DNA from: Eubacteriales bacterium | Lineage (GTDB): Bacteria; Bacillota; Clostridia; Oscillospirales; CAG-382 | DNA: 60,634 nucleotides | Assembly: GCA_045535465.1 (NCBI GenBank) | Contig: JAZSLS010000029.1 | Span: forward strand, 1 to 60,634 | Direction of reading: 5' to 3' | Shown here: in pieces, positions 23,495 through 42,337 of the stretch | How positions within the stretch are numbered: the first letter of the stretch is position 1 | Layout of the letters: each line of letters begins with the position of its first letter | Translations under genes and position numbers: made by a program | The notes under the pieces: model-generated | The model's database searches: none | The model's input: the letters and a program-made list of their open reading frames with translations, nothing else | Told to the model about the DNA's origin: nothing

Positions 23495-23510
23495 AAACGG
23501 AGGTTTTATT

Positions 23511-26039: not shown

Positions 26040-27968
26040 ATGAAGAAGCTGTTTATACGTTTTATGTGTTTTGTGCTGGCGGCTTTGTGCGTGCCTGCGC
26101 TGAGCGCTTTTGCGGCAACAAAACCCGATAATGGAGATGTAGGTGCCGCAACAGTGACAGGAATAATCAGCGAGGTGTTTGTAAAAATTGAAGTTCCTGC
26201 CGGCGGAAGAGTTCCAAGCTTTGAAGCAACGGCTTTGACTTCAAGTATGTTGGAGTACAAAATTGCCAACTACAATTACGAGTACGATTCCGAGTATTAC
26301 CACAACTTCTATAAACACGGCATACAGTGGTACGACCTTGACAATGACCGTGCTTTGAAGGAAGGGGAAGCCTTTGTAACAGGCACCCGTTACAGGGTGG
26401 ATATAGCTATTAAGGTGAACTACGGTACGGATATTTGGGGCGTTCCTTATTACGCTTTTGCTGTAGACGTTGCAGGCTACTTAAACGGAATGACGGGTGA
26501 AGTAAAAAGCTTCAGAGGTGAAGACAAAGAACGGGTTCGTGAGCTTTCCTATACCTTCCCTCCCTGCGAGGCTGCACCTGCAGACATAGGCGGCGTTAAC
26601 CTTTGGATAGGCGAGCCGCTTGAGAACGCAACTGCTGACTTTTCTTTTACTACGAGCGACGTAGGCTACGTACCCGGCGAAGGTGAATCGTTTGCCGTAA
26701 ACGGCGTAACCTGGTACGATGCCGATACTTCAGTACCTATGGACATAACCGACACCTTCAAGGCAGGGCATCGATACACCGTAGCTATTGAGCTTAATGC
26801 GGCTTCTCCCTATATATTTGCAACCAATTCTGATGGGACAAGCAGGGTTTACGCAACTATAAACGGATACAGGGCAGAGGTTTACTGCAACGCTCAGACC
26901 GTTTCGGATATGGATACCGAGATATGGGTAAGGTACACCTTTGAAGCGTGCAATTCGCTGATAAGCACTGTGGAGGTTATGGACTTTTCTCTCCCCAAGG
27001 AGGGTAAAAAGGGCGATATAACGATGACCTCGCCCGATGACAGCATCTACACGGTGGAGGGTATCACCTGGCAGGACAGCATCTCGACCATTGCTACCTG
27101 GAACAAAAAGACAGGCTACACCTCTCAAAACGGCGTGTTTGAAAGCGGCGTTACTTATACCGTTACCGTAACTCTTGCGGCGCAGCCCGGCTATAAATTC
27201 GCTACCGATGGAGGCGGAAAGCCTGCTGTTATTGCCTCTGCCGGCGGGTTTGAGATGCAGGTTACGGAGCATTACGCTTACGCATCGGATTCCTATATAA
27301 TGGTTACGGGCAGATTTATATGTAAGCAAAGCCGTGTAAGCTATGTAAAGATTATAAACCTTGAAGAGCCTATAGCAGGCAAACACCCTGACTACACTGC
27401 AACATCCGTTGGCGTAGGATACCGCATAGAAACCGAGAGAGAGGCAAAGGACGTTGATTATAGTAACGGTCAGTACGTTGACCGTTACTACAAATACGGT
27501 GGCGTTGCTTGGTACGACCTTACGGAAGGCAGATATATCTATGCGGACGAAACCTTTATAGAGGGGCACGTTTACACCGTGTATATCGATATAGTTGCGG
27601 ATAGCGATAACGGATATGAGTTCAAGATAGACAGCGACTCCTACAGTCAGGTAATAGCTACTGTAAATGATAATCAAGCACTGGCTGTTTCGAAAGCATC
27701 AAACGCCTTCCGGAATCAATACGTGGAATACATCGTATCCTGCCATTACGTTTATGGAGGCGGAGAAGAAGGCACCAAGGGCGACGTAAACGGTGACGGC
27801 TACGTAGACAACCTTGATGCGGCGGCAATACTTAAGTACGATGCAGGTCTAAGCGACCTTATGGACAAGCAGCTTGCAAGCGCCGACGTTAACGACGACG
27901 GTTACGTGGATAACCTTGATGCCGCAAAGATACTTAAATACGATGCAGGTATTATAGATAGTCTTTAA
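26040..27968 (+). CDS. Secreted dockerin protein with four ~100-aa W-Y-D/..NG.. repeat modules
   Basis: Signal peptide MKKLFIRFMCFVLAALCVPALSAFA. Repeats contain GIQWYDL, GVTWYDA, GITWQDS and GVAWYDL. C-terminal GDVNGDGYVDNLDAAAILKYDAG / ADVNDDGYVDNLDAAKILKYDAG. Confidence 0.8.
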   Translation: MKKLFIRFMCFVLAALCVPALSAFAATKPDNGDVGAATVTGIISEVFVKIEVPAGGRVPSFEATALTSSMLEYKIANYNYEYDSEYYHNFYKHGIQWYDLDNDRALKEGEAFVTGTRYRVDIAIKVNYGTDIWGVPYYAFAVDVAGYLNGMTGEVKSFRGEDKERVRELSYTFPPCEAAPADIGGVNLWIGEPLENATADFSFTTSDVGYVPGEGESFAVNGVTWYDADTSVPMDITDTFKAGHRYTVAIELNAASPYIFATNSDGTSRVYATINGYRAEVYCNAQTVSDMDTEIWVRYTFEACNSLISTVEVMDFSLPKEGKKGDITMTSPDDSIYTVEGITWQDSISTIATWNKKTGYTSQNGVFESGVTYTVTVTLAAQPGYKFATDGGGKPAVIASAGGFEMQVTEHYAYASDSYIMVTGRFICKQSRVSYVKIINLEEPIAGKHPDYTATSVGVGYRIETEREAKDVDYSNGQYVDRYYKYGGVAWYDLTEGRYIYADETFIEGHVYTVYIDIVADSDNGYEFKIDSDSYSQVIATVNDNQALAVSKASNAFRNQYVEYIVSCHYVYGGGEEGTKGDVNGDGYVDNLDAAAILKYDAGLSDLMDKQLASADVNDDGYVDNLDAAKILKYDAGIIDSL

Positions 27969-28021
27969 TCGTCGCATTAGAAAAACGTACAACAAGTATA
28001 AAATAGAGAAAGGGCGATAAT

Positions 28022-30673
28022 ATGAAAAGAATAATAGCATTTTTACTTTGTTTTGTATTCCTTTGCGGAACTTTACCAATAGTTGCATCCGCAGAAGAGA
28101 ATACGGAGTTTGACGGGATAATAGAGATTAACAGCTGGGAGGCGTTTAAGGCGGCTTTTGAAAACCTGCCCGACTATGCCTTTGGCAACTACAGAATGGT
28201 GCTTATGAAGGACCTTGAACTGGACACGATTGACCGTGAACCCGTAAAGTACAGAGACTCCTGGATAAGTGTGTGGATAGAGGGTAACAACGTGGAGTTT
28301 GACTTTAACGGTCACACCCTCTCCTGTGTAGACGATATTTCCAATACCACCTCCAAATTTATAGAAATTAACGTATGCAACTTCGACCAGACCACCGGCT
28401 CTACCTTGCGTTTTATGGACTCCGTAGGCGGCGGCGGTATCAGCATGATCTCTCCCAGAGTTATAGATGACCAGATTGCCGCCATATTGGTAACGACCGG
28501 TGACTACTACCGTAAGGTTGAGGGCGTCTTGGATTACATCGATGAAAACCACAATAAGCTTATAATAGACGGCGGTAACTATACCCTTGAAACCTCAACC
28601 AAAAAATATGGCGGCGGCAGCACTTTAAGCCAAGGCATTAAATACAGAGGCACCTTTATAGCCCACAATATGCACACCGTTATAAACGACGGCTGTTTTG
28701 AAGCAAAGGGTAGCGGCTACGTTTACGATGGGGTCGACGCTTGCACAAGAGAACTTACAGCTTTCGGAACCACCAGATTTGGTAATACCTACGACAACTG
28801 GCAATCATTGGTAATAAACGGCGGCAAGTTCGAATCCGTCGGCTACTCCATTCACAACTTTGACGAGGGCGTAAACAATATCAACGGAATCACCGGAGGT
28901 TTGGATAACCAGCTTATCCCCGAAATAAACGGCGGTTTGTTCGCAGGGGGTATAGGCTTTATCGGTCATACCTTTTATACAGTTAATCATCCCAATACTC
29001 AAACAATCGGTTATTCCAAACTTGCAGAATACCAAGCCATTATGATGATAAAGAGCTTAAGCGCCACCGCTATTTTGACTCGCGAAAATACGTTTATAGA
29101 CGTTACCGAAGCTACCTTTGAGGACCTGCACGATGCCAGTCAGGTTCTAGTGATGAACGAGGGTATGCTGGGTCTTGAGTTTTCACCTACGGCGAAAGTG
29201 GGTTACAACACCGTGCTTTACTGTCCCATCGACAAGTCCGAAACCTTTTCAGTTAAGTTCGAATTAAGTGATTTTATCAAGGATCACGTTAACTACACGG
29301 TATATCTGCCCTATGTACACGTAAGGGGCAGGGGTGAAACTGAATGGAAGGAATACGACCGTGTTGACAGCAAAACCATAGAAATTGCAAACTATCCCAA
29401 CGGTCTTGAGGTGTTGGTAGGCTTTAAGATATTCGTAGCAAGACAAGAGTTTATATTTACCAGATTTTACACCGTCAACGTTACCGAGGCTTCCGCCCCC
29501 GCAAACATCATAACACAACCCGAAAGTGTGAAGGCTGGGGTAGGTGAGATAGCCGATGCGTTTGTGGAAGCAAGTAACGTGGACACCTATCAGTGGCAAG
29601 TGATGTTTGGCGACTCCTGGGTATCCGTTGACGACACGGTGGCGACTATGCTTGACGGTGTTCGTATGGGAGGCTATAACACCAGCAGCTTCCATATTCG
29701 TTCTACCGGTCTTGGCTCCATTAAGGTGCGTTGTCTGCTTACGGGTACTGACGGCTCTACAACAACCAGCCGTACCGTAACCCTGACCTTTGGTGACATT
29801 CCGCAGGTAGAAAACTTCTATTCCCACGGTTACTATGCAGACGGTGACGCCACCTTCTATCTCTGTGGCGATATGTTCGAAAAGGTGGACTGGACCGTTG
29901 TATACAGAAGCGGCAGTACCACTAAGTTCTATACCCTGGAGGAGTCCAAGGCAGAAACGGGCATTGATTACGATACAAGCCTTAAGCTTTTCGGCGGCGT
30001 TTACCGTGCGGTCGTAACCTTCAAAAACGTACCAGAAAGCTTTAGCGGTCAATACAGCGTAGGTTATTCCGTATCTAATGCTCTGGGTAAGGTGAACTTT
30101 AGCCTCGATAACGTAGTACCCTTTGAGTGTCTGCCCGAACTTCCCACAGTAACGGAAACGCTTACGGGCGATATCTGTAACGAGGGCGGAACCCTTACAT
30201 TCACCTTTACTTCTCCCGATATGACCTCTGCCGACTGGCTTTTTGAAAGCTATGACGAAGATGGCATAGGGGTAGTTCACAGCATCGACGAGATGAAGGC
30301 GGCCTTCCCCAAGTCTACCTTCAAAACGGAGCTTAAGGACGGCAAGGCTACCCTTACCGTTACCAACGCCGACGTAGCTATGAATTCCTATACCCTGTAC
30401 GCCTACGCCGTAGGTGCAAACGGTAGGGCAAACGCAGGCAGTATAGGCGTATCTGTAATGGAAAAAATTGTACTTTATGAAATAGGCGACGTAAATGCAG
30501 ACGGCTACGTGGACAACCTCGATGCGGCTATGGTGCTCAAGTACGATGCGGGTCTCATCGACCTTAAGTACGAGCAGTTGATTAGCGCCGACGCAAACGG
30601 CGACGGCTATGCCGACAACCTCGATGCCGCAATGATTCTCAAATACGATGCAGGCATTATTGATAGTCTTTAA
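28022..30673 (+). CDS. Large secreted dockerin protein (beta-helix-like N-terminal region, Ig-like units)
   Basis: Signal peptide MKRIIAFLLCFVFLCGTLPIVASA. C-terminal GDVNADGYVDNLDAAMVLKYDAG / ADANGDGYADNLDAAMILKYDAG. Full-length paralog of 21335..23494. Confidence 0.85.
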   Translation: MKRIIAFLLCFVFLCGTLPIVASAEENTEFDGIIEINSWEAFKAAFENLPDYAFGNYRMVLMKDLELDTIDREPVKYRDSWISVWIEGNNVEFDFNGHTLSCVDDISNTTSKFIEINVCNFDQTTGSTLRFMDSVGGGGISMISPRVIDDQIAAILVTTGDYYRKVEGVLDYIDENHNKLIIDGGNYTLETSTKKYGGGSTLSQGIKYRGTFIAHNMHTVINDGCFEAKGSGYVYDGVDACTRELTAFGTTRFGNTYDNWQSLVINGGKFESVGYSIHNFDEGVNNINGITGGLDNQLIPEINGGLFAGGIGFIGHTFYTVNHPNTQTIGYSKLAEYQAIMMIKSLSATAILTRENTFIDVTEATFEDLHDASQVLVMNEGMLGLEFSPTAKVGYNTVLYCPIDKSETFSVKFELSDFIKDHVNYTVYLPYVHVRGRGETEWKEYDRVDSKTIEIANYPNGLEVLVGFKIFVARQEFIFTRFYTVNVTEASAPANIITQPESVKAGVGEIADAFVEASNVDTYQWQVMFGDSWVSVDDTVATMLDGVRMGGYNTSSFHIRSTGLGSIKVRCLLTGTDGSTTTSRTVTLTFGDIPQVENFYSHGYYADGDATFYLCGDMFEKVDWTVVYRSGSTTKFYTLEESKAETGIDYDTSLKLFGGVYRAVVTFKNVPESFSGQYSVGYSVSNALGKVNFSLDNVVPFECLPELPTVTETLTGDICNEGGTLTFTFTSPDMTSADWLFESYDEDGIGVVHSIDEMKAAFPKSTFKTELKDGKATLTVTNADVAMNSYTLYAYAVGANGRANAGSIGVSVMEKIVLYEIGDVNADGYVDNLDAAMVLKYDAGLIDLKYEQLISADANGDGYADNLDAAMILKYDAGIIDSL

Positions 30674-30688
30674 CCAAAAGGTGATACA

Positions 30689-32179
30689 ATGAAGATATAC
30701 ACAAAAGCCTTTACTTTACTTTTATGCCTTATGCTTTGCCTGACAGGCATAAGCGTAAGCGCATACACTGCTTTGTTTTTCAAGTACAACTACACCTACG
30801 ATATAGGCGTAAGCTACGTTGGCGAAGCTATCACTCCCTATTCCGTAGCAGACGGCGTAAGCGGAGGCTTTGCCCCCTACACCTTCAGCAAGGTATCGGG
30901 TCCCGATTGGGTCAAGGTTTCCGCAGACGGTATTGTAAGCGGCACACCTACAAAGACCGCAGAAAACGGTGAAATGGTGCTTCGCGTAACGGATGACGAC
31001 GGCAACACCGCCGACCTAAGCGTTTTTGTTGCGGCTACTGCACCTGCTCCCTCCGACCGTGCTGTAATTTCAAGGGTTGCGGCTACATCTGAAAACTTTG
31101 TGACTATTCCGCACATCGGCACAAAATATCACTATCCCCAATTTACCGTTACCGAGGGTGCTCCTGCAAGCTTTGATTCCTCAACAGCCTATTGGCAAAA
31201 GAAGGACGGCAGCTTCTGGCAAAACCAATATTTATACAGCGGTTACACCTTTACTGCAGGCACTTACCGCCTTCAAGTGCGTGTTGAGCTGGATGGTAAC
31301 GCAGGTGCTACCCACGTTTTTGCAAGCAATGTCAGCGTAAGCGTTAACGGCGTTGCCTGGACGGTAAACGAGCCTGTGATATACGATGACAACTCCTATG
31401 TGTTTGCCATCTCGCCGGAGTTTGTGCTTACGGCAAGCGATGTTGCTCCTACCTTTACAGTCAGCTACGAAACAAACGGCGGTAACAGCATACCAAAGGC
31501 AAGTGGTCTTAAGTATTATGCAAAAATTCCCACTCCGCAGGCACCTGTAAGAGAAGGCTACACCTTTTACGGCTGGTACAGGGATGCAGAGCTTACGAAA
31601 GAGGTTGATTGGAATTACGGCATAACAGGGGACACCACTATATACGCAAAGTGGATAAAGAACGAATGTATACTTACTGAGCTTTCCTTTACGGTTACAG
31701 CACCTATGGGCGGGCAGGCTCCTTCTTACAGCATCCATTCCGCTTCGCCTGCGGTGTATACTGCGACAGTTGACTATTGGTATCTTTACGAGGAGCCGTA
31801 TCCTGCGTTGAGAAAGACAGACAGCTTTACAGCAGGGCAGGAGTATGCTTTAAGATATACGATTACCTTGGCAGACGGATACGTTTTGGGAAACTATGTA
31901 AGGGTAACGGTTAACGGAATAAGCGCTACCGTCTACGGCTCTTCCCTGCAGCAGCAGGTTGTTTTTGATGCCGCAACAGGCGGTACTAAAGGCGACGTAG
32001 ATGCACACGGCTACGTGGACAACCTTGATGCGGCTATGGTGCTCAAGTACGATGCGGGTATTGTAGATATGACGGCAGAGCAGTCAGCGGTCGGTGACGT
32101 AAACGGTGACGGTTACGTGGATAACCTTGATGCTGCACGTATTCTTAAATATGACGCAGGACTTATAGAAAACCTATAA
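30689..32179 (+). CDS. Secreted dockerin protein with Ig-like and Listeria-Bacteroides-type repeat
   Basis: Signal peptide MKIYTKAFTLLLCLMLCLTGISVSA. YTFSKVSGPDWVKVSADGIVSGTP (putative Ig-like). EGYTFYGWYRDAELTKEVDWNYGITGDTTIYAKW (Flg_new-type repeat). C-terminal GDVDAHGYVDNLDAAMVLKYDAG / GDVNGDGYVDNLDAARILKYDAG. Confidence 0.85.
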   Translation: MKIYTKAFTLLLCLMLCLTGISVSAYTALFFKYNYTYDIGVSYVGEAITPYSVADGVSGGFAPYTFSKVSGPDWVKVSADGIVSGTPTKTAENGEMVLRVTDDDGNTADLSVFVAATAPAPSDRAVISRVAATSENFVTIPHIGTKYHYPQFTVTEGAPASFDSSTAYWQKKDGSFWQNQYLYSGYTFTAGTYRLQVRVELDGNAGATHVFASNVSVSVNGVAWTVNEPVIYDDNSYVFAISPEFVLTASDVAPTFTVSYETNGGNSIPKASGLKYYAKIPTPQAPVREGYTFYGWYRDAELTKEVDWNYGITGDTTIYAKWIKNECILTELSFTVTAPMGGQAPSYSIHSASPAVYTATVDYWYLYEEPYPALRKTDSFTAGQEYALRYTITLADGYVLGNYVRVTVNGISATVYGSSLQQQVVFDAATGGTKGDVDAHGYVDNLDAAMVLKYDAGIVDMTAEQSAVGDVNGDGYVDNLDAARILKYDAGLIENL

Positions 32180-32332: not shown

Positions 32333-33232
32333 ATGAAACTTTACGCTCCCGAATATTATAAAAGCTTTGTTTGCATTGCGGATAAATGCAACCATAGCTG
32401 CTGTGTTGGCTGGGAAATAGATATTGACAGCGCAACCTTTGAAAAATACAAAAAGTGTAGCGACGGCTACGGTTTAAGCATTTTGAGCAGCATTTCTACG
32501 GAAGGAACGCCGCATTTTAAGCTTTGCAAAGGCGACAGATGCCCTCATCTTGATGAAAAGGGGCTTTGTAAAATTATTCTCGGTGCGGGCGAGGATTATC
32601 TTTGTGATATCTGCCGTGAGCACCCAAGGTTTTACAATTATACAGACGTTGCCGAGGTGGGGCTTGGTATGTCCTGCAGAGAGGCGGCAAGGCTTATTTT
32701 GTCTTCACCGAACTATGGCGTAATGGCAGAAGTGGGCGAAAAATCTTTTAGCGGTGACGATTTATGCTTTGACGGACGTGCGGAGCGCAAAAGGGTGTAC
32801 AAGGTGCTTTCCGATAAAAAGCTTAGCTATAAAACCAGGCTTAAGCTGCTTTGTAACGAGTACGGAATAGAGCTTGGCGATGACGGCCGGTGGTTGGAAA
32901 AGCTTAATTCGATGGAATATCTTGATGACGCCCACAGGGAGCTGTTTATGAGCTACTCATCAAAAAAGCACCCCGAGGGGAAGGACGAATATCTGGAAAG
33001 AGCGTTGGCGTATTTTGTTTACCGCCACTGTACCGAGGCGTTGGACGAGGAGGATTTTTGCGCACGTTTGCAGTTTTGTTTGTTTTTGGAAAGGCTTTTG
33101 GCTTCGCTTATTTGCTCCCAAAAGGCAGAAGCTTTGGAGGAAACAGCGGTTTTGGCAAGCATTATTTCTGAGGAGATAGAGTATTCCGACGACAATACCG
33201 AGCTTTTTTACAGCTTCTATTTCGCCGTTTAA
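32333..33232 (+). CDS. Cys-rich FliB-family protein (putative lysine-N-methylase-like)
   Basis: N-terminal YKSFVCIADKCNHSCCVGWEIDID plus later CPHLDEKGLCKI and CDICREHPRF motifs resemble the FliB/CxxCxxCC family (from memory). Confidence 0.5.
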   Translation: MKLYAPEYYKSFVCIADKCNHSCCVGWEIDIDSATFEKYKKCSDGYGLSILSSISTEGTPHFKLCKGDRCPHLDEKGLCKIILGAGEDYLCDICREHPRFYNYTDVAEVGLGMSCREAARLILSSPNYGVMAEVGEKSFSGDDLCFDGRAERKRVYKVLSDKKLSYKTRLKLLCNEYGIELGDDGRWLEKLNSMEYLDDAHRELFMSYSSKKHPEGKDEYLERALAYFVYRHCTEALDEEDFCARLQFCLFLERLLASLICSQKAEALEETAVLASIISEEIEYSDDNTELFYSFYFAV

Positions 33233-33295
33233 TATTGACAATTTTTTCCATTGGCTTTATACTTAAACAAATCAACAAAGTAAGGAGGGCGCTTT

Positions 33296-35593
33296 GTGTA
33301 CGAAAACGAGATGTTTGCAGGCTGGGAAATTGTGGAGCTTTTAGGTAAAGACGGCTCGGAAGAAGTATATAAAATACGAAAAACCGATGCTTCGGGCAGG
33401 GAAGTATATTCTGCAATGAAGGTTATGGCCGTTCCTGCTTCCAAGGAAGAATATCGCATTTACGCTGAAGACGGTTATGACGCCGAAAGCATAGCCAACA
33501 TATTTAAAAATCAGGTCACTGATATTTTAAACCAATATAAGCCGCTTTACGATATGCGGGAATGCACCAACGTAGTAGGCTGTGAGGAGTATAAGGTTGT
33601 ATCCCAACCCGACGGTTATTCCTACCGTGTGTTTATACGTATGGAGCTGCTTAAGACGCTTCCTGATGCAAACAGGGAAAAGCCCCTTACGGAAAAGGAA
33701 ATTGTTAAGCTGGGTATTGATATATGCAACGCCCTTCTTTGTTGCGAAAAAGTAGGCGTTGTACATAGGGATATCAAGCCCCAAAAGATTTTTGTTGACG
33801 ACAACGGTAATTATAAGCTGGGCGGTTTCAGCACCGCCAAGACAATGGACGGTACCGTTAAGGCAACAAGAATGGGATACTCGGCGTATTCAGCGCCGGA
33901 GGTGTTTAATAGCGGCGTTTACAATTCTAACGTTGATATATATTCTGTGGGTATGGTGCTTTATTGGCTTCTTAACGAAAAAAGATTGCCTTTTCTACCC
34001 TTGCCTCCCGCTGTTCCCACCAACGGACAAATTTCAGAGGCTCAGGTTAAGAGGCTAAGAGGCGCACCTATGCCCGAACCTAAAAACGGCTCTTCCGCTT
34101 TAAAGGCGGCAGTGCTTAAGGCTTGCGCCTTTGACCCCACGGCAAGGTTTTATACAGTAGCGGCGTTTAAACAGTCGCTGGAGGCTGAGCTTGAGGGCTT
34201 TGCCGCAGTTGCCGCTCCCAAGCCCGATGCGGTGGAGAGCCTTCCCGGCGAAAACAATAAAACCGAAGAGCCTAAAAAGAAAAGCAAAAAGTGGCTTATA
34301 ATACTGATTATAGCTATTGCCGCTTCGTTTGTCCTTCTTGTTATTGCGGTTATTGCCATAATAGTTTTCTTCTTCCTTTTCAACAGAACCGTTGAGGACG
34401 TAATCCGTTTTGAGGACGAAAGCTCGGCATACGTCAGTACGGACGCAGGCTTTAACGACGACCGTGAAGAGTCTCGGTACAGCGTTGATGAGAATAGCTC
34501 CTATATTGATGAAAGCATCTATCTTCCCCCTGAGGAAAGCTATGATGAGCCTTTCGAGGAAAGCAGTTACCTGCCTCCCGAGGAAAGCTATGACGAGCCT
34601 TCAGAGGAGAGCTACGACGAGCCTTCCGAGGAAAGCTACGACGTAGAAGGCTACGTTCGTTATAACGGCGCCTGGGGTGACCTTGAGTGGGAGATTTATT
34701 CCGACGGCACACTTCTTATAAGCGGCGAAGGCAAAATGGACGACCTAAGCTGGTACGAGGACGTTGCGTGGGCGGTGCATAGAGATGAAATTACTCGGGT
34801 TATAGTAAAAGAGGGCGTTACCTCTATCAGCGCATACGCTTTCAGCCAGCACGAAAAGGTAACCTCCGTTAAATTGCCTTCAAGTGTTAAAACCTTGGGG
34901 CTTAACTCCTTTAGAGCTTGTACCTCCATAAAAGAGCTTAGTATACCAAAAGGGGTTAACTACATAGACGAGGACGCTTTTGCCTTTTGTACCGACCTTG
35001 AAACCATTAATATCCCCGTCGGTGTAGACGAGATAAGCAAATGGCTGTTTGGCTACTGCACCTCCCTTAAGACCATAAACTACGATGGCACTGTGGCACA
35101 GTGGAGAGCGCTTCCCAAGGGTCTTAACTGGTTTAAGGATACCACTGATTTTAAGGTGCAATGCAGGGATGGCGTCATAAACCACACCATAAGCACAAAC
35201 TATACTCTTGCCTACTCAGCCTACACCGTAACCCTTACGGATAACGGCAACGGCACTGCAACCATAACGGCAGCAGTACCCGCAGGCGTGGTTTCGGGTA
35301 AAATAGTTATAAACACCAGCAGTGACCTTAGCCTTGTATCTGGCAGTGTTAAGGGCTACGGCGCAGTGAACGAAAACTACAATTCAGACGGTGTAAGCGG
35401 CGCTTGCGTTTCCTTTGCATCTTCCTCTGCTTTACCTAACGGTGAGATAGTTTTCTCCGCTACTTATACCGTAAAGGACGGCGCAGTTCTTGACTTTTCG
35501 GACTTTAACGCTCCTATTTGGGATATATCAAAAAGCGGTAGTACCATAGGCACTCAAAACACAAGCGATGTATTAAAAAAGCTTGTGAAATAA
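33296..35593 (+). CDS. Transmembrane Ser/Thr-kinase-like protein (predicted pseudokinase) with extracellular LRR and cohesin-like domain
   Basis: GTG start with a taaggaggg RBS. Kinase subdomains: GKDGSEEVYK, AMKV, HRDIKPQK (33764-33787), KLGGFS in place of K..DFG (33815-33832), SAPE. TM WLIILIIAIAASFVLLVIAVIAIIVFFFLF. Acidic EESYDEP repeats. BspA-like LRRs. C-terminal ~140-aa beta-rich domain. Confidence 0.8.
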   Translation: MYENEMFAGWEIVELLGKDGSEEVYKIRKTDASGREVYSAMKVMAVPASKEEYRIYAEDGYDAESIANIFKNQVTDILNQYKPLYDMRECTNVVGCEEYKVVSQPDGYSYRVFIRMELLKTLPDANREKPLTEKEIVKLGIDICNALLCCEKVGVVHRDIKPQKIFVDDNGNYKLGGFSTAKTMDGTVKATRMGYSAYSAPEVFNSGVYNSNVDIYSVGMVLYWLLNEKRLPFLPLPPAVPTNGQISEAQVKRLRGAPMPEPKNGSSALKAAVLKACAFDPTARFYTVAAFKQSLEAELEGFAAVAAPKPDAVESLPGENNKTEEPKKKSKKWLIILIIAIAASFVLLVIAVIAIIVFFFLFNRTVEDVIRFEDESSAYVSTDAGFNDDREESRYSVDENSSYIDESIYLPPEESYDEPFEESSYLPPEESYDEPSEESYDEPSEESYDVEGYVRYNGAWGDLEWEIYSDGTLLISGEGKMDDLSWYEDVAWAVHRDEITRVIVKEGVTSISAYAFSQHEKVTSVKLPSSVKTLGLNSFRACTSIKELSIPKGVNYIDEDAFAFCTDLETINIPVGVDEISKWLFGYCTSLKTINYDGTVAQWRALPKGLNWFKDTTDFKVQCRDGVINHTISTNYTLAYSAYTVTLTDNGNGTATITAAVPAGVVSGKIVINTSSDLSLVSGSVKGYGAVNENYNSDGVSGACVSFASSSALPNGEIVFSATYTVKDGAVLDFSDFNAPIWDISKSGSTIGTQNTSDVLKKLVK

Positions 35594-35604
35594 AGAAACA
35601 AAAA

Positions 35605-35639
35605 ACAGGCTGAGAAAAACCAAGTTTTTCTCAGCCTGT
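35605..35639 (+). terminator. Rho-independent terminator of the kinase-like gene
   Basis: Perfect 15-bp stem acaggctgagaaaaa / tttttctcagcctgt, 5-nt loop, followed by tttgg. Confidence 0.75.
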
Positions 35640-35644
35640 TTTGG

Positions 35645-35736
35645 TAAACAAATAAAAAGTTAAGCGTGGTTTGTGCCACGCTTAACAACATAAAAATTGT
35701 ATATAAACCTTCTTGCGTTCCGTGCTTATTTCACAT
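35645..35736. repeat. 92-bp direct repeat, copy 1 (contains an 11-bp-stem hairpin at 35659-35686)
   Basis: Matches 35841-35932 at an offset of 196 bp with about 3 mismatches. Hairpin gttaagcgtgg-tttgtg-ccacgcttaac is followed on the minus strand by tttttattt. Confidence 0.85.
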
Positions 35737-35840: not shown

Positions 35841-35932
35841 TAAATAAATAAAAAGTTAAGCGTGGTTTGTGCCACGCTTAACAACATAAAAATTGTATAT
35901 AAACCTTCTTGCGTTCCGTGCTTTTTTCACAT
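35841..35932. repeat. 92-bp direct repeat, copy 2 (hairpin 35855-35882 = proximal terminator of the minus-strand gene)
   Basis: See copy 1. Lies 3 nt beyond the stop (35936) of the 35936..38293 gene. Confidence 0.85.
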
Positions 35933-35935: not shown

Positions 35936-38293
35936 CTAAGTTTTTAGGGATTTGGCGAGGGCAATATAATCAGCGGAATTAATTACTTTGTCCGGTGTGA
36001 GGTCGGCGGCAATGAATATACATCCCGTAAGCTCCATACCGCCTACAAGATGCGCACGCATAGAGATATAATCGCCGCTGCTGACAACGCCGTCACAGCT
36101 TATGTCGCCCACAATGGCAATATCCACGCTGTCTGTAACCTCGCCGTTGTAGCCAATGCTTTGTACGGTGCAGGCGGTGGTAATAACCTCACCGTCTGCA
36201 AGCGCCTTACCGTTTTTAATAACACGAAGGGTGTTAACGTTGGCAAAGCGGGATAAAAGCTCTGTTGCCGTAGTACCTGCTGCCGCATCTTTAATAACGC
36301 CCTCGTTAATTGTAACGTCGGCGTTTTCTTTTAGGGTAAGCTTGTAGTTTTCCTGCAAGGGCGGGTCTGCCACGTAGGTAGCGGAAAGCATACGTATGGT
36401 AGTTTCGTCCTTGTTGTTGGAAACGGGCTGAACTGCTACGTACATATTGCCGCCGTAGACCTTAACGCCTTGAACCGTAAGAGTAAAGTCGGCTATGCGG
36501 TATACTGCCTTGCGAGTGGCGTTGCCGCCGTTGGTGTACAGATATTTATATATCACAGGCAACTGCATTTTGGACACCGAGCCGCCAACCATATACAAAA
36601 ATTTTGCATCCGTTCCAACGCCGTCTGCCTCAAAGCCTTGAAAAGAGCTGTTAGGCTGGGTGTTAAGGCAGAAGTTGCTTTTAACTAAGGATGCGGCGTT
36701 TTTAAGGGAGTAGCTGCTTCCCGCAGCGCTTATTGCAGCGTTGAGAGAGCTTGTGGTGTAAACTGTGTAATATATATCGCCCGAAACGAATTGGGTGCGC
36801 ACAACAAGCCTGTTATCCGCCTTGCTTGTCATAGCCACAGCAGCACGCTTAACCGCCGTGCTGTCCATAGCCGTGGCGTTGGCGTTGGCGTAGGTAAGGT
36901 CTGTTATGGTTTTTGAAGTAAGGCTTGCTCCCGATGCGGTCACCGTGTATTCCAAGCGCAAAAGGGTGGTAGCGTAGCTGTCACTGCCGTAAACGGGCGC
37001 ACCTCCGGTCCAAAGATAGGTCTTGCCCGCAACGCTTTCGTCCACCTCAAGGCTTTCGCCTATGCCTGCTCCCGCAAGAACGGCATAGTCCAAAACCCTT
37101 GCCACGTTGCCGTTAAGCCCACAGCGTGAAATATACGTGTCACTGCCCGAGCGTTGGGAAACGTAAAGGGTGTTCATATCCTCGCTAAAGGCAAAATTTT
37201 GCACCGCATTGTTGGTGGGAAGCCCCTTAATCGTGTACTTGTGGTTAGCGTGAAGGGTCTCCACAGCGTAATCGTCAAGGGTATATATCTTGGTTTTGTT
37301 CTTCTTGCCGTCGCCGGTTTCATCATCTATAAAAATACAGTAAAAGGAGCCGTTTAGCATATAGGCGCTTTCAATTTCCACCTTGCTTTTTGCAGGAACG
37401 GTCCACACCTCTTTAAGAGTAATGGAGGACGAGGTGTAGCTGTACTTGTGTATGGTAGGCGTTTGCTGGTTGGAGCCGCCTGAGAAATAAAGGGTGCTTG
37501 TACCGTCAAGCCCCATACCCTGCATAGAGCCGTTGGGCAGGTCGCCGTCATAGCTTATCTTTGCAAGCTGGTGAGCTCCCATTGTCCCCATATCAACAGC
37601 TCCGCTTGATGCGGAGAGGGCGGCATTAAGGGCAGAGAACTTGTAACAGCACAAAAACTGCTTGTAGGTAGAGCCGTTTTTAAACTTAAGCCAAAACATT
37701 ATTCTGTCGCTGTTGGGTGAGGCGGAAAACGCCATACGGAAAATACGTGCGCCTGAGTATATGGAGCCGCCACCCTCCGTGGCGTTAATAAAGTCCGTAA
37801 GCCTTTTTACGTCTGCAGTACGTGCGCCTGTGGCTTGGGTGCTGTCGGGAACATATTTAAAACGGTAAAAGGTACGTGCCCAATAGGTGTCTGTATACAA
37901 AGCGTCCGTAGTGTCGGTAATGGTGTTGCCAACCACGTAAACGTAGGGCACACCCTCGTAGTCGTAAACAGCAAGAGCTTCGCCGTGACCGTAGTTTTCA
38001 AGTATCACGTAGTCAAGGCAGGTAGCGGTAAGCCCGTCGTCGGATACCAAACAGCGGGACAAATAGGTGTTTGCCTTAACACGCTGGGTAGCAAAAACGT
38101 AGCGGTCACCCTTAGCATCGTTATAGAAGAAAAACTGCTGCACCGCCTTGTTCGTGCCAAGGTTTTTAAGGGTCATAACCGCATTTGGCGTTTTGGTAAG
38201 GGAAGTGGCTGCGCTTACGCTTTCGGCTGAAAAGCACATACTGCCCAGCAAAAGCACCATAGTCATAAGAAAAGCGCCAAGTTGTTTTTTCAT
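35936..38293 (-). CDS. Secreted protein with two ~330-aa internal repeats and a divergent C-terminal dockerin-like module
   Basis: Start moved to ATG 38293 (MKKQLGAFLMTMVLLLGSMCFSAESVSA). Repeats share ..NAVQ.F.F....Y(V/V)(F/S)..R......Y(L/I)SRC.. and ..FQG(M/F)..DG.. blocks. C-terminus GDISCDGVVSSGDYISMRAHL...ADLTPDKVINSADYIALAKSL is EF-hand dockerin-like. Confidence 0.75.
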   Translation of the reverse strand: MKKQLGAFLMTMVLLLGSMCFSAESVSAATSLTKTPNAVMTLKNLGTNKAVQQFFFYNDAKGDRYVFATQRVKANTYLSRCLVSDDGLTATCLDYVILENYGHGEALAVYDYEGVPYVYVVGNTITDTTDALYTDTYWARTFYRFKYVPDSTQATGARTADVKRLTDFINATEGGGSIYSGARIFRMAFSASPNSDRIMFWLKFKNGSTYKQFLCCYKFSALNAALSASSGAVDMGTMGAHQLAKISYDGDLPNGSMQGMGLDGTSTLYFSGGSNQQTPTIHKYSYTSSSITLKEVWTVPAKSKVEIESAYMLNGSFYCIFIDDETGDGKKNKTKIYTLDDYAVETLHANHKYTIKGLPTNNAVQNFAFSEDMNTLYVSQRSGSDTYISRCGLNGNVARVLDYAVLAGAGIGESLEVDESVAGKTYLWTGGAPVYGSDSYATTLLRLEYTVTASGASLTSKTITDLTYANANATAMDSTAVKRAAVAMTSKADNRLVVRTQFVSGDIYYTVYTTSSLNAAISAAGSSYSLKNAASLVKSNFCLNTQPNSSFQGFEADGVGTDAKFLYMVGGSVSKMQLPVIYKYLYTNGGNATRKAVYRIADFTLTVQGVKVYGGNMYVAVQPVSNNKDETTIRMLSATYVADPPLQENYKLTLKENADVTINEGVIKDAAAGTTATELLSRFANVNTLRVIKNGKALADGEVITTACTVQSIGYNGEVTDSVDIAIVGDISCDGVVSSGDYISMRAHLVGGMELTGCIFIAADLTPDKVINSADYIALAKSLKT

Positions 38294-38416
38294 ATTAAGC
38301 CCCCCGTTTATTAATATATGTATAATTATAACATACATATACCGCCGTTTCAAGAAGTTTTTGGTTGACAAAACGGGTTTAATGTGTTAAAATTTAAAAA
38401 GGGGAGGTGACTCCGT

Positions 38417-40432: not shown

Positions 40433-42337
40433 ATGAAAAAAATATTTTCTGTTTTTCTTGCCCTTGCCCTTTGTTTTGCATTAACTCCCTTTAGTGTGGG
40501 AGCAGGAGTTAAAAGCATAGATGACGGAATTACCGATAGCGGTGATTGCGGAGATGCTGTGTATTGGTGTTTTTATGCCGAATCGGGCATACTCAGCATA
40601 GACGGTTTGGGTGAAATGTATGATTATCCCGATGGTACCCCTTGGGAAAGCTACAATGCCGAAATTAAGGCTGTGCATATCTTTGATGCCATTACTTATA
40701 TCGGTGAAAACGCTTTTAAGGACTGTACTGCTCTTAAAAGTATTGTTCTTCCCAACAGCGTTACTTCCGTTGGCGATGGTGCGTTTCGGGGTTGCAGTAA
40801 TCTTCAAGATATTACCGTTCCTGCCGGTCTGACAGCCATTGGCAAATCTGCGTTTTGGGGTTGCGCATACCTGAGAGTCGTGTATTTAAGCGATATTGGC
40901 GCTTGGTGCGGTATTGAATTTGAGGATGATTATTCAAACCCTTTCACCCAAGATTGCAGTATGTACCTTGACGGTACTTTGGTAAATAAAGTGGTTATCC
41001 CCGACGGTGTTACCGCTATTAAGGACAGAGCGTTTTACGGTTGCGCTTCTATCGAAAGCTTTGATATTCCGGACAGCGTTACATCTATCGGCTCACGTGC
41101 TTTTTACGGATGTACCACCCTTGAAAGTATGATTATACCTGACAGCGTTACAAGCATTGGCTCCTATGCGTTCAACGGATGCTCGGACCTTGAAAATATC
41201 AGCATTTCCGATAACATTCTTTCCATTGGCAAGTATGCGTTTAAAGGAACCGCTTATTATGAAAATGTGAACAACTGGGAAAACGATATACTGTATATTG
41301 ACAACTGCTTAATCGAAGTGAAGGAAACGTTTGAAGGCGATTATACAGTAAAGCACGACACCAAATGTATAGCAAGTTACAGCTTCCTTAACTGTTCTTC
41401 CCTTACAAGCCTTACTATAGGCGACGGTATTGCTTACCGTATGGATATGTACGAATTTCACGATAACACTTCCCTTAAAAGCCTTGTTCTCGGAAACGGT
41501 GTAAATCACATAGATAGCCGTGTGTTTTTGTATTGCCCTTCCATTGAAACTCTTGTAATAGGCGGCGGCGTTACTTTTGTGAGACCGTCTGCTTTTGAGG
41601 CTTGCACTTCTCTCAAACGTGTTTTTATAAAGGGTGTAATTGAAAGATGGCTCCACGACGTGTTTTATGACACCACTTCCTGTAACAGCGTTTACATAGA
41701 TTCTCCTACGGTTGCCGACAGCTTGGTTTTGGGAAAAGATGACGGCATACTTAGGCACGTTAAAGCCGTAATGCTTGAGAGCTCCATTACAAACGTTACC
41801 GACCAAGTAAAGAAAAATTACACGTATACGGAAACCTTTAATTGCGGAGGAAAAACCTATAACTCCTATAGTGACCATGCTCACGTTTGGGAGGAATACA
41901 GTTCAGCTGCCAACGGATGCGCAAAGAACGGCTTTACAGGTCACGAGTGTTCCGTTTGCGGTACGATTAAGGGAGATGTTGTTTCGGGGCATACCTATTC
42001 CGACGGGTGGAGCGAAGACGGCACTAACCATTGGCTTGTTTGCTCTCTTTGCAGCTATACGTCCGATAAGACAGAGCACGGTTACGACAACGGCTTTGAT
42101 GCCGAGTGCAACACCTGTGGTATCGAAAGGGAGCTTAATATTCAGCAGGGCGACATAAACAATGACGGATATGTTGATAACATGGATGCCGCAGCGATAC
42201 TCAAGTATGACTCAGGCATTACGGATATCCCTGAAAACGCCCGCTCCTTTGCAGATGTTAACGGCGATAGCTTTGCCGATAACCTTGACACAGTACGAAT
42301 CCTCAAATACGACGCAGGGCTTATCGACAGCCTGTAA
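40433..42337 (+). CDS. Secreted BspA-like LRR protein with a Cys/His-rich insert and tandem dockerin repeats
   Basis: Signal peptide MKKIFSVFLALALCFALTPFSVGA. LRR_5-type repeats. GHECSVCGTIKGDVVSGHTYS..HWLVCSLCSYTSDKTEHGYD..AECNTCG. C-terminal GDINNDGYVDNMDAAAILKYDSG / ADVNGDSFADNLDTVRILKYDAG. Confidence 0.85.
   Translation: MKKIFSVFLALALCFALTPFSVGAGVKSIDDGITDSGDCGDAVYWCFYAESGILSIDGLGEMYDYPDGTPWESYNAEIKAVHIFDAITYIGENAFKDCTALKSIVLPNSVTSVGDGAFRGCSNLQDITVPAGLTAIGKSAFWGCAYLRVVYLSDIGAWCGIEFEDDYSNPFTQDCSMYLDGTLVNKVVIPDGVTAIKDRAFYGCASIESFDIPDSVTSIGSRAFYGCTTLESMIIPDSVTSIGSYAFNGCSDLENISISDNILSIGKYAFKGTAYYENVNNWENDILYIDNCLIEVKETFEGDYTVKHDTKCIASYSFLNCSSLTSLTIGDGIAYRMDMYEFHDNTSLKSLVLGNGVNHIDSRVFLYCPSIETLVIGGGVTFVRPSAFEACTSLKRVFIKGVIERWLHDVFYDTTSCNSVYIDSPTVADSLVLGKDDGILRHVKAVMLESSITNVTDQVKKNYTYTETFNCGGKTYNSYSDHAHVWEEYSSAANGCAKNGFTGHECSVCGTIKGDVVSGHTYSDGWSEDGTNHWLVCSLCSYTSDKTEHGYDNGFDAECNTCGIERELNIQQGDINNDGYVDNMDAAAILKYDSGITDIPENARSFADVNGDSFADNLDTVRILKYDAGLIDSL

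What the first reader, a model, noticed from the sequence alone, without database searches (positions are those of the whole stretch)
33296..35593. Membrane pseudokinase whose ectodomain combines the LRR head of the secreted dockerin proteins with a cohesin-like domain
The cytoplasmic domain keeps VAIK-like AMK, HRD and SAPE. However, the catalytic-loop Asn is Lys (HRDIKPQK, codon 33785-33787), and DFG is replaced by GFS (KLGGFS). Both Mg-binding residues are therefore missing, which predicts an inactive or atypical kinase.

After one TM helix and EESYDEP acidic repeats (about 34518-34640), the ectodomain starts with the same WG.L.W....DGTL.ISGEG.MDD head plus BspA-like LRRs as the secreted protein encoded at 10443.

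Instead of a dockerin, it ends in a ~140-aa beta-rich module (about 35150-35590: ..TATITAAVPAGVVSGKIVINTSSDLSLVSGSVKG..NGEIVFSATYTVKDGA..). Its strand pattern resembles cohesins.

If this is a cohesin, the protein could tether the neighbouring dockerin proteins to the membrane and couple their occupancy to intracellular signalling. As far as I know, that architecture has not been described.
Basis: partly seen in the sequence, partly recalled or inferred. Interest (0 to 1): 0.75.

Follow-up and report, generated by a model that had tools for sequence, protein, structure and literature searches.

The report
Membrane pseudokinase with cohesin-like ectodomain module
This gene encodes a single-pass membrane protein with a catalytically crippled Ser/Thr-kinase domain inside the cell; its outer part ends in a previously unannotated beta-sandwich module that looks like, but is not proven to be, the cohesin that docks secreted dockerin proteins onto gut Clostridia.

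Summary
ORF 33296-35593 (765 aa) has, in order: a Hanks-type kinase domain, one TM helix, acidic 8-aa repeats, BspA-type LRRs and a 135-aa C-terminal module.

Across 119 homologues, 31 alignment columns are invariant. The query differs at exactly three of them: alphaC Glu (E80Q), catalytic-loop Asn (N164K) and DFG Asp (D177G). It also carries G19D, G179S and T195Y. It is therefore a lone pseudokinase, or an atypical kinase, inside an otherwise canonical kinase family.

The C-terminal module matches no Pfam or NCBIfam family. An exhaustive HMMER search still found about 58 representative relatives. In them the module is tied to dockerins (at least 28 of 61 proteins), to sortase-type anchors, to lipoprotein signals or to N-terminal TM anchors. 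In a conserved two-gene unit it sits directly upstream of a dockerin protein.

AlphaFold2 on a 66-sequence alignment gives a confident beta-sandwich (pLDDT 93.9). In Foldseek against the PDB, 24 of the 50 best matches are cohesins, but the matches are weak (best E 1.9e-3; TM 0.31-0.57). No sequence profile links the module to cohesins.

The cohesin reading is therefore plausible but unproven, and coupling to signalling is speculation. Only this one protein fuses the module to a kinase domain.

The parts
33235..33263 (+). sigma-70-like promoter candidate (TTGACA-17-TATACT, 11/12) in the 63-nt gap after the upstream FliB-like gene
   Evidence: this is a consensus match only
33282..33298 (+). Shine-Dalgarno AAGGAGG (33282-33288) and GTG start codon (33296-33298)
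   Evidence: Sequence read. Homologues begin at the same point (MYENE..., P0004)
33296..34195 (+). cytoplasmic Hanks-type (pseudo)kinase domain, residues 1-300
   Evidence: Pfam Pkinase E 6.8e-23; NCBIfam PknB/Stk1-type partial matches; PDB PknB E 3e-14
33344..33370 (+). degenerate Gly-rich loop GKDGSEEVY (family consensus G.GGFSKVY; G19D)
33419..33421 (+). K42, the retained beta3 (VAIK) lysine
   Evidence: 99% K in homologues; K in the query
33533..33535 (+). Q80 in place of the alphaC glutamate (Glu in 119 of 119 homologues)
33764..33787 (+). catalytic loop HRDIKPQK: HRD Asp kept, metal-binding Asn replaced by Lys (N164K)
33824..33832 (+). GFS in place of DFG (D177G, G179S)
33878..33880 (+). 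Y195 in place of the conserved activation-segment Thr (GT..YMAPE becomes GY..YSAPE)
34292..34381 (+). single TM helix (residues 333-362) preceded by KKKSKK, giving an N-in/C-out topology like PknB
   Evidence: Sequence; the topology is inferred from the positive-inside rule
34511..34643 (+). acidic tandem repeats (E-E-S-Y-D-E-P-S; 24-nt period, 4.7 copies), an extracellular linker
34664..35185 (+). BspA-type LRR domain with N-cap (AWGDLEWEIYSDGTLLISGEGKMDD) and C-cap (YDGTVAQWRALPKG...QCRDGVINH)
   Evidence: Pfam LRR_5 E 1e-23 to 1e-24; 41% identity to ORF 10422
35186..35590 (+). C-terminal 135-aa beta-sandwich module of an unannotated, dockerin-associated family (cohesin-like fold)
   Evidence: no family match; family of about 58 representatives; AF2 pLDDT 93.9; cohesins are the best but weak structural neighbours
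35602..35642 (.). perfect 19-bp hairpin flanked by T/A runs directly after the stop codon; candidate bidirectional terminator, so the gene looks monocistronic

Best explanation
What is shown. The gene derives from a large Clostridial family of PknB-like receptor kinases with the layout N-terminal cytoplasmic kinase, one TM helix and a variable ectodomain, which is often LRR_5. In this copy the kinase domain has lost the alphaC Glu, the catalytic-loop Asn and the DFG Asp, along with the Gly-loop G2, the DFG Gly and an activation-segment Thr. It keeps the fold, the beta3 Lys and the HRD Asp.

What is shown for the ectodomain. It consists of an acidic repeat linker, a short BspA-type LRR block and a C-terminal beta-sandwich. 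That sandwich belongs to a previously unannotated module family found only in cell-surface or dockerin-bearing proteins of uncultured Eubacteriales.

What is inferred (most likely reading). The module is a highly divergent cohesin-type docking domain. On this reading the protein acts as a membrane-anchored, monovalent 'anchoring scaffoldin' that holds one of the many locally encoded dockerin proteins, or another dockerin partner, at the cell surface. The dead kinase domain would then serve as a cytoplasmic scaffold or dimerisation partner, for example for an active paralogous kinase, rather than as an enzyme. Whether it transmits any signal is unknown.
For: Kinase fold and lost residues.
- establish the fold and the losses.
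- Of 31 columns invariant in 119 homologues, the query differs at exactly E80Q, N164K and D177G.
- It deviates at 14 of 78 columns that are at least 90% conserved. The other homologues average 1.7 (sd 2.3).

The kinase+TM+LRR_5 architecture is common in the family.

The module family.
- The exhaustive HMMER search gave 58 proteins at E <= 1e-10.
- There are no Pfam or NCBIfam matches.

Architectures parallel known scaffoldin types.
- Signal peptide, module, linker and an NPXTG-like sortase anchor, as in ScaE or Sca2-type anchors: 9 proteins.
- Lipoprotein signal, linker and module: 12 by regex, about 18 by inspection.
- One to three modules plus a dockerin, as in adaptor scaffoldins (P0123, P0124, P0139, P0147).
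- Peptidase/CHAP, Flg_new repeats, module and dockerin (P0130-32, P0136, P0141).

Operon evidence. A conserved unit [TM-Big_3-LRR-module] then an 18-nt gap then a 607-aa dockerin protein occurs in three contigs. The dockerin proteins are 65% identical between the loci.

Window context. The window carries six proteins with one homogeneous dockerin type, GDVNGDGYVDNLDAA.ILKYDAG. No recognisable cohesin was found among the ORFs scanned.

Structure. AF2 gives a 9-10-strand sandwich at pLDDT 93.9. Of the 50 best Foldseek PDB hits, 24 are cohesins of types I, II and III plus the C. perfringens and Archaeoglobus cohesins.

Precedent. bioRxiv 10.64898/2026.02.05.704116 reports sequence-invisible cohesin families, TM-anchored single cohesins, and scaffoldins carrying LRR, Flg, endopeptidase and Ricin domains in ruminococci.
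Against: - No Foldseek match reaches E <= 1e-3. TM-scores to cohesins are only 0.31-0.57 with RMSD 5-10 A, and CBM2, pilin and other sandwiches are interleaved.
- No sequence or profile link to cohesins was found.
- Many family members place the module immediately before a dockerin in enzyme-bearing proteins. That position also fits a CBM or an X-module.
- Dockerin binding was not tested, and no complex model could be run.
- The kinase+module fusion is a singleton among about 15 billion proteins, so it has no conservation support.
- The closest ectodomain homologue has only a 20-residue cytoplasmic tail. The surface function therefore does not need the kinase domain.
Confidence: 0.45

Rival explanations
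1. The C-terminal module is not a cohesin. It is a carbohydrate- or ligand-binding (CBM-like, adhesin) or spacer beta-sandwich that travels with dockerin systems. On this reading the protein is a surface adhesin or sensor that binds a substrate or host glycan through LRR plus module, and it does not tether dockerin proteins.
For: - Foldseek similarity to cohesins is weak, and CBM2 (1exg, 6qfs), the GH20 N-domain, Als3 and pilin domains score in the same range.
- The preprint read notes that cohesin-like sandwich profiles also capture CBMs.
- The module often sits directly before a dockerin in enzyme proteins, as CBMs and X-modules do.
- Weak sub-threshold Pfam similarity exists to the starch-binding X25 module in 6 of 66 members.
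- The family has nearly invariant aromatics (Y65, W112) that could form a sugar site.
Against: - No CBM family is detected by Pfam in any of the 66 members.
- About half the family are small surface-anchored proteins whose only globular domain is this module. Several others already carry a discoidin-like putative binding domain in front of it. That layout resembles CBM+cohesin+anchor scaffoldins.
- Cohesins make up 24 of the 50 best structural hits, although they are a small share of PDB sandwiches.
- The operon with a dockerin protein is conserved.
Confidence: 0.3
2. The kinase domain is not dead. It is an atypical, metal-independent kinase comparable to CASK (GFG in place of DFG, Asn replaced), with K164 partly compensating for the missing Mg2+. 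The protein would then be a real ligand-gated receptor kinase. This rival concerns only the cytoplasmic half and is compatible with either reading of the module.
For: - The beta3 Lys (K42), the HRD Asp (D159) and the APE motif are retained, and the domain is 65% identical to an apparently active homologue, P0004.
- The Asn-to-Lys change puts a positive charge where Mg2+ would sit (sequence; inference).
- CASK as precedent comes from my own knowledge of the literature (Mukherjee et al. 2008). It was not checked here.
Against: Besides both metal ligands, the alphaC Glu (100% conserved), the Gly-loop G2, the DFG Gly and the activation-segment Thr are also lost. Six hits on catalytic or regulatory positions look like relaxed selection on catalysis rather than a tuned alternative mechanism.
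Confidence: 0.15
3. The cytoplasmic domain is an evolutionary relic with no function of its own. An LRR-kinase gene acquired the LRR-module cassette, or the reverse, and only the surface part is now under selection. The kinase domain is drifting towards loss, with the kinase-less P0125-type protein as the end state.
For: - The fusion is a singleton.
- P0125 and P0121 carry the same LRR+module ectodomain (60% identity over 348 aa) on a simple TM anchor with a 20-residue tail.
- The query is an outlier in deviations at conserved kinase positions.
Against: - The 765-codon frame is intact, with a good RBS and its own promoter-like and terminator elements.
- The kinase domain still scores 82 bits against Pfam Pkinase and is 65% identical to P0004.
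- The substitutions are concentrated in catalytic residues rather than spread over the fold. That is the usual signature of a maintained pseudokinase.
Confidence: 0.15

Closest known systems
PknB/PrkC/Stk1-type bacterial receptor Ser/Thr kinases (eSTKs), specifically the Clostridial subfamily with variable ectodomains (PASTA, LRR_5, Flg_new, Big_3, RCC1)
   Same: Same topology: N-terminal cytoplasmic Hanks kinase, one TM helix, C-terminal ectodomain. It shows 40-65% identity in the kinase domain, and the kinase+LRR_5 combination is shared with at least 30 of the 120 best hits.
   Different: All 119 retrieved relatives keep the alphaC Glu, HRDxKPxN and the DFG Asp, whereas this protein lacks all three. 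None of them has the C-terminal module.
Bacterial membrane pseudokinases: M. tuberculosis MviN (ActPs3) and the T7SSb component EssB/YukC
   Same: These are bitopic membrane proteins with a cytoplasmic degraded kinase fold and an extracellular domain. They act as scaffolds or dimerisation platforms rather than enzymes (PMC12599244; PMC9600267).
   Different: Those are old, conserved pseudokinase families with all motifs degraded. This protein is a sporadic, mildly degraded member of an active family. It has a different ectodomain and shows no relation to MurJ or the T7SS.
Anchoring scaffoldins with a single cohesin (R. flavefaciens ScaE, R. bromii Sca2, and TM-anchored single-cohesin proteins of ruminococci)
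   Same: A single cohesin-like sandwich is displayed on the cell surface in an organism with many dockerin proteins. Family members have the ScaE-like layout of signal peptide, module, linker and sortase signal. LRRs and TM anchors occur in scaffoldins described in bioRxiv 10.64898/2026.02.05.704116.
   Different: There is no sequence similarity to any cohesin type, and structural similarity is below that paper's threshold. The anchor is an N-terminal TM helix attached to a kinase-fold domain, which is not reported there ('kinase' occurs 0 times). Dockerin binding is untested.
RsgI anti-sigma factors of Acetivibrio (Clostridium) thermocellum
   Same: These are membrane proteins that expose a cellulosome-type module (a CBM) outside and carry a signalling domain inside, linking extracellular polysaccharide status to the cytoplasm. 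This comparison comes from my own knowledge and was not checked here.
   Different: The signalling chemistry differs (anti-sigma/sigma-I versus a kinase fold), the extracellular modules differ, and there is no homology.
CASK and other 'pseudokinases' lacking the DFG Asp and catalytic Asn
   Same: The same pair of metal-ligand losses (GFG/GFS, Asn replaced) occurs with the Lys and HRD retained. This comes from my own knowledge and was not checked here.
   Different: CASK keeps the alphaC Glu. It is a eukaryotic CaMK-family protein and is unrelated in context.

Membership tests
Hanks-type protein kinase (Pfam PF00069) | Kinase fold recognised by the family profile | tested here: met
   Pkinase E 6.8e-23, 81.8 bits against a cut-off of 31.7; PknB structures E 3e-14
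Hanks-type protein kinase (catalytically competent) | beta3 Lys (VAIK) and HRD catalytic Asp | tested here: met
   K42 and D159 are present
Hanks-type protein kinase (catalytically competent) | alphaC Glu, catalytic-loop Asn and DFG Asp (salt bridge and the two Mg2+ ligands) | tested here: not met
   E80Q, N164K and D177G. Each is invariant in 119 of 119 homologues
Pseudokinase | Kinase fold lacking at least one of the canonical catalytic residues | tested here: met
Pseudokinase | Absence of phosphotransfer activity or nucleotide binding | not testable with these tools
   Needs biochemical assays. A CASK-like atypical activity cannot be excluded
BspA-type LRR (Pfam PF13306 LRR_5) | Profile match above the gathering score | tested here: met
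   83.8-87.4 bits against a cut-off of 27.7
Cohesin (Pfam PF00963; types I-III) | Sequence-profile membership | tested here: not met
   No PF00963 hit in the query or in any of 66 family modules at E <= 1. A family profile against all PDB sequences finds no cohesin. hhalign against CipA Coh7 gives probability 0.4% (sequence verified against 1AOH)
Cohesin (structural definition) | Nine-stranded jelly-roll beta-sandwich superposable on reference cohesins (TM-align >= 0.65 in bioRxiv 10.64898/2026.02.05.704116) | tested here: inconclusive
   The AF2 model has 9-10 strands at pLDDT 93.9. Cohesins are 24 of the 50 best Foldseek hits, but the best E is 1.9e-3 and TMq is 0.31-0.57 (2vo8 0.57, 3fnk 0.52, 2zf9 0.50-0.51). 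TM-align against 1OHZ, 1TYJ and 2ZF9 could not be run
Cohesin (functional definition) | Ca2+-dependent binding of a dockerin | not testable with these tools
Cohesin/scaffoldin (contextual) | Occurs in dockerin-rich genomes in scaffoldin-like architectures (anchor+module; modules+dockerin) | tested here: met
   At least 28 of 61 proteins have a dockerin, 9 have an NPXTG-like anchor, and about 18 are lipoproteins. There is a conserved operon with a dockerin protein, and the window holds six dockerin proteins. The same context would also fit a CBM
Carbohydrate-binding module (any Pfam CBM family) | Profile match to a CBM family | tested here: not met
   None at E <= 1 apart from sub-threshold X25_BaPul_like in 6 of 66 members, best E 0.006. 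CBM2 structures align at TMq 0.31-0.43

The most novel reading that the evidence does not exclude
The module is a real new cohesin type, and this protein is a cohesin-bearing receptor. On this reading, docking of a secreted dockerin protein on the outer face changes the oligomeric state of the cytoplasmic pseudokinase. The pseudokinase then allosterically regulates an active paralogous Hanks kinase. That would be the first direct link between cellulosome-like surface assembly and Ser/Thr-kinase signalling.
Probability: 0.1. Interest if true: 0.85.

Novelty: new variant of a known kind. Interest (0 to 1): 0.55.

Why it matters
If the module binds dockerins, it defines a further sequence-invisible cohesin family. 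The family has about 58 clusters at 50% identity, none annotated, in uncultured gut or rumen-type Eubacteriales that carry many dockerin proteins of non-cellulolytic type (LRR proteins, peptidases, lectins). That would help explain how such 'orphan' dockerin proteomes are attached to cells.

The fusion to a kinase-fold domain would be the first physical link between a cohesin-dockerin system and Hanks-type signalling. It also offers a natural example of a bacterial receptor kinase caught shortly after losing catalysis.

If the module is instead a CBM or adhesin, the protein is a modest variation on the common LRR receptor kinases of Clostridia.

Tried and rejected
- **Word-index homologue searches with the module** found only P0121, both with the single sequence and with the 66-sequence profile. 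The family became visible only in the exhaustive HMMER search.
- **AF2 on a two-sequence alignment** failed (pLDDT 40). It was repeated with 66 sequences.
- **Sequence links to cohesins** were all negative:
  - phmmer and hmmsearch of the module or the family profile against the PDB;
  - a Pfam scan of all 66 modules;
  - hhalign against a verified CipA cohesin.
- **The recurrent weak CFSR (PF19079) match** is only the 'TDNGDGT.T.T' hairpin motif. It stays below threshold and was rejected as a family assignment.
- **Genome-collection scan.** It first failed with the wide alignment. With a narrower one it gave only two MAG loci, both 'Eubacteriales bacterium'.
- **The JGI metagenome scan** found nothing.
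- **Cluster look-up** gave no source names for any family member.
- **Context look-up of the closest kinase homologue P0004** returned no record, so orthology and synteny of the kinase half could not be tested.
- **Further module copies or a canonical cohesin in the window** were sought and not found.
- **An internalin-type inter-repeat Ig domain** was considered for the module. It was rejected because most family members have no LRR.
- **The organism** could not be identified beyond Clostridia/Eubacteriales-like.
Full report
**The gene**

Window 33296-35593 (+) is an intact 765-codon ORF. It starts at a GTG that lies 7 nt after an AAGGAGG Shine-Dalgarno sequence. A promoter-like site (TTGACA-17-TATACT, 33235-33263) sits in the 63-nt gap behind the upstream FliB-like methylase gene. 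A perfect 19-bp hairpin (35602-35642) follows the stop codon directly. The gene therefore looks monocistronic. The next gene downstream is convergent.

**Domain layout**

- Pfam finds Pkinase at residues 104-290 (E 6.8e-23) and LRR_5 at residues 498-602 (E 1.2e-23). It finds nothing significant on the last 135 residues.
- NCBIfam gives only partial PknB/Stk1-type kinase matches.
- One 30-residue hydrophobic helix (residues 333-362) follows a KKKSKK cluster. This implies the N-in/C-out topology of PknB-type receptor kinases.
- Next comes a real tandem array of acidic 8-residue repeats at 34511-34643 (24-nt period, 4.7 copies).
- After that come the LRR N-cap, about five BspA-type repeats and the usual C-cap (..YDGTVAQWRALPKG..CRDGVINH).
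- The C-terminal module occupies residues 631-765.

**The kinase domain**

A database search returned a large family of Clostridial/Oscillospiraceae proteins. They share the layout kinase, TM helix and variable ectodomain (PASTA, LRR_5, Flg_new, Big_3, RCC1-like, discoidin and others). Identity in the kinase domain is 40-65%, and kinase+LRR_5 is a common combination within the family.

All 119 retrieved relatives keep HRDxKPxN and the DFG Asp. In a MAFFT alignment, 31 columns are strictly invariant among the 119. The query differs at exactly three of them:
- E80Q, the alphaC glutamate;
- N164K, the catalytic-loop asparagine;
- D177G, the DFG aspartate.

It also differs at:
- G19D, the second glycine of the Gly-rich loop;
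- G179S, the DFG glycine;
- T195Y, in the activation segment (GT..YMAPE becomes GY..YSAPE).

The beta3 Lys (K42), the HRD Asp (D159) and the APE motif are kept. Alignment to PknB and SNF1 crystal-structure sequences confirms that these motifs are equivalent.

The query deviates at 14 of 78 columns that are at least 90% conserved. The other members average 1.7 (sd 2.3). Overall identity to P0004, which looks active, is still 65%.

This pattern is a retained fold with losses concentrated on catalytic residues. It is what is expected of a pseudokinase. An atypical metal-independent activity of the CASK kind cannot be excluded from sequence alone (CASK is cited from my own knowledge).

A caveat applies: no orthologue with the same substitutions was found, so the state is not shown to be conserved. 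Known bacterial membrane pseudokinases such as MviN and EssB/YukC are old, fully degraded families (PMC12599244). This protein is a sporadic case inside an active family.

**The LRR head**

The segment from AWGDLEWEIYSDGTLLISGEGKMDD onwards is 41% identical over 148 residues (E 2e-32) to the N-terminus of the secreted LRR_5+dockerin protein at 10422-12545. It is about 30% identical to the one at 40433-42337. The N-cap motif is also present in kinase homologues such as P0002 and P0003. The resemblance is therefore real, but it is a general property of this LRR class and not a special link to the local dockerin proteins.

**The C-terminal module: a new family**

The fast word-index search found a single relative, P0121 at 62% identity. 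The exhaustive HMMER scan of 1.84 billion cluster representatives found 67 proteins, 58 of them at E <= 1e-10. After domain extraction there were 66 module copies in 61 proteins. No member carries a source name. No member matches Pfam Cohesin or any CBM family at E <= 1. The two genome hits are 'Eubacteriales bacterium' MAGs.

Architectures in the family:
- At least 28 proteins also have a dockerin. These include proteins that are just signal peptide, module and dockerin, or two to three tandem modules plus a dockerin. Others combine M23/CHAP/NlpC-type peptidases or lectins with Flg_new repeats, the module and a dockerin.
- Nine have a signal peptide, often a discoidin-like domain, a low-complexity linker, the module, another linker and a C-terminal '(N/P)xTGD + TM + KKRA' signal. 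That signal scores just under the cut-off of NCBIfam NF033846, 'Ruminococcus NPXTG-anchored protein'.
- About 18 are small lipoproteins whose only globular part is the module.
- Three are N-terminally TM-anchored: the query, P0125 and the VWA protein P0154.

Only the query has a kinase domain.

P0125 and P0121 share the whole LRR+module ectodomain with the query (60% identity over 348 residues). They sit on a plain TM anchor with a 20-residue cytoplasmic tail and a Big_3 domain. In three contigs that gene is followed after 18 nt, with its own Shine-Dalgarno sequence, by a 607-aa dockerin protein. That protein is 65% identical between the loci.

The window itself encodes six proteins with one very uniform dockerin type, GDVNGDGYVDNLDAA.ILKYDAG. 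The same type is seen on module-bearing proteins from other samples. No recognisable cohesin and no second module copy occur in the window.

**Fold of the module**

With two sequences AlphaFold2 failed (pLDDT 40). With the 66-sequence alignment it gave a confident all-beta domain of 9-10 strands (pLDDT 93.9, pTM 0.87).

Foldseek against the PDB gave no match at E <= 1e-3. Among the 50 best matches, 24 are cohesins:
- C. acetobutylicum CohA2 (6kgf);
- R. flavefaciens ScaB Coh5 (5n5p) and ScaE (2zf9);
- C. thermocellum type I and type II cohesins;
- A. cellulolyticus ScaA (3fnk);
- the C. perfringens cohesin-like modules (2vo8, 2jh2, 2o4e);
- the Archaeoglobus cohesin (2xdh).

For these, E ranges from 2e-3 to 5e-2, query-normalised TM from 0.31 to 0.57, and RMSD from 5 to 10 A. 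CBM2, pilin, the diphtheria-toxin R domain and AP2-mu sandwiches are interleaved among them.

Sequence-level tests are negative:
- the family profile against all PDB sequences;
- Pfam;
- hhalign against CipA cohesin 7, whose sequence I recalled and then verified against 1AOH.

A 2026 preprint (bioRxiv 10.64898/2026.02.05.704116) bears directly on this.
- It shows that ruminococci hold several cohesin families invisible to sequence methods.
- It confirms some of them by crystallography.
- It uses TM-align >= 0.65 to reference cohesins as its criterion.
- It warns that cohesin-like sandwich profiles also pick up CBMs.
- It describes TM-anchored single cohesins and scaffoldins carrying LRR, Flg, endopeptidase and Ricin domains. 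These are the same kinds of architecture seen in the present family.
- It does not mention kinases.

My Foldseek TM values are below that threshold. They come from Foldseek's own alignments, not from TM-align, so the structural membership test is inconclusive.

**Conservation within the module**

Conservation is highest in the stretches SGKIV, NENY, G.CVSFA and (D)..P.WNL. By order along the chain these correspond to strands 3, 5, 6 and 8, which form the dockerin-binding sheet in cohesins. I had no model coordinates and could not check which side chains are exposed, so this is only a hint.

**Interpretation**

Shown:
- a receptor-kinase-type membrane protein whose kinase domain has lost key catalytic residues;
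- an ectodomain of LRR plus a member of a new, dockerin-associated beta-sandwich family with a cohesin-like fold.

Inferred (about 45%): the module is a divergent cohesin-type docking domain. The protein would then be a membrane-anchored monovalent anchor for dockerin proteins, and the dead kinase domain would serve at most as a scaffold or dimerisation element.

Rivals:
- The main rival (about 30%) is a CBM- or adhesin-type function of the module.
- A CASK-like residual activity (about 15%) concerns only the cytoplasmic half.
- A functionless relic domain (about 15%) also concerns only the cytoplasmic half.

The idea that dockerin occupancy is signalled into the cell is not supported by anything beyond the architecture. 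It is weakened by the kinase-less homologues and by the fusion being unique among about 15 billion proteins.

**Novelty and score**

The parts are of known kinds: an eSTK-family pseudokinase, BspA-type LRRs, and a cohesin-like sandwich in a dockerin-rich Clostridial genome. Divergent and TM-anchored cohesins have just been described.

New here are an unannotated module family of about 58 clusters and its one-off fusion to a degraded kinase. I rate it a new variant of a known kind, with interest 0.55. If dockerin binding and pseudokinase-mediated signalling were both shown, it would deserve about 0.85. I put that at roughly 10%.

Noticed in passing
window 35645-35736 and 35841-35932: A 92-nt direct repeat (98% identical, 196 nt apart) lies in the intergenic region between the target gene and the convergent gene 35936-38371. 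Each copy holds the same 28-nt terminator-like hairpin (GTTAAGCGTGGCACAAACCACGCTTAAC), which occurs nowhere else in the window. It may be a local duplication of the 3' end region of the minus-strand gene.
   Followed up: partly
window 21335-32179, plus 10422-12545 and 40433-42337: Six secreted proteins carry one very uniform dockerin type (GDVNGDGYVDNLDAA.ILKYDAG), and four of them are consecutive (21335, 26040, 28022, 30689). Apart from LRR_5 and one Flg_new repeat, their N-terminal parts have no Pfam match. No canonical cohesin was seen in the window.
   Followed up: partly
window 35936-38371 (-): An 811-aa secreted protein has two repeated halves weakly matching the phage 5-bladed beta-propeller receptor-binding platform (PF21311, E 4e-7). 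Its C-terminus looks like a degenerate dockerin (GDISCDGVVSSGDY...AADLTPDKVINSADY) that Pfam does not call.
   Followed up: no
L001 1467-3293; L004 9528-11351; L005 3051-4682: A conserved 607-608-aa dockerin protein (65% identity between loci) is always encoded 18 nt downstream of the kinase-less LRR+module membrane protein (P0125/P0121). Its N-terminal roughly 540 residues have no family assignment. In L001 the upstream gene is broken by a frameshift and an internal LRR deletion, which may be an assembly artefact or a pseudogene.
   Followed up: partly
P0126, P0127, P0135, P0144, P0149, P0165, P0182, P0186 (C-termini); also L003 8838-9770: These proteins have a C-terminal sorting signal '(N/P)xTGD(A/L)G + hydrophobic helix + KK(R/K)A'. 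It scores just below the cut-off of NCBIfam NF033846 (Ruminococcus NPXTG-anchored protein). It is probably a sortase signal variant typical of this lineage.
   Followed up: partly
window 19932-21134 (-): A 400-aa protein combines the 7TM region of 7TM histidine kinases (HisKA_7TM, E 8e-13) directly with a LuxR/GerE HTH. It has no kinase or receiver domain, so it may be a membrane-bound one-component regulator.
   Followed up: no
window 1-8000: This segment is distinctly AT-rich (GC 0.36-0.37, against 0.42-0.50 in the rest). All its genes are on the minus strand, including an 1104-aa FtsK/SpoIIIE-family ATPase (1994-5308). It may be a mobile element or a secretion/conjugation module.
   Followed up: no
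window 46034-52727: A Gram-positive pilus locus: a 1683-aa LPXTG protein with PA14, SpaA and Cna_B domains, followed by a 524-aa backbone-pilin-like LPXTG protein.
   Followed up: no
window 32333-33232 (+): The gene directly upstream of the target is a truncated-looking flagellin lysine-N-methylase (FliB, NF038110; E 3.5e-46). It matches only the first roughly 139 of the 373 model positions.
   Followed up: no
P0017 (homologue of the kinase domain, 48 member sequences): This homologue deviates at 14 of 78 conserved kinase columns, as many as the query, while keeping HRD..N and DFG. It could be a second, more widespread divergent or pseudokinase lineage in the family.
   Followed up: no
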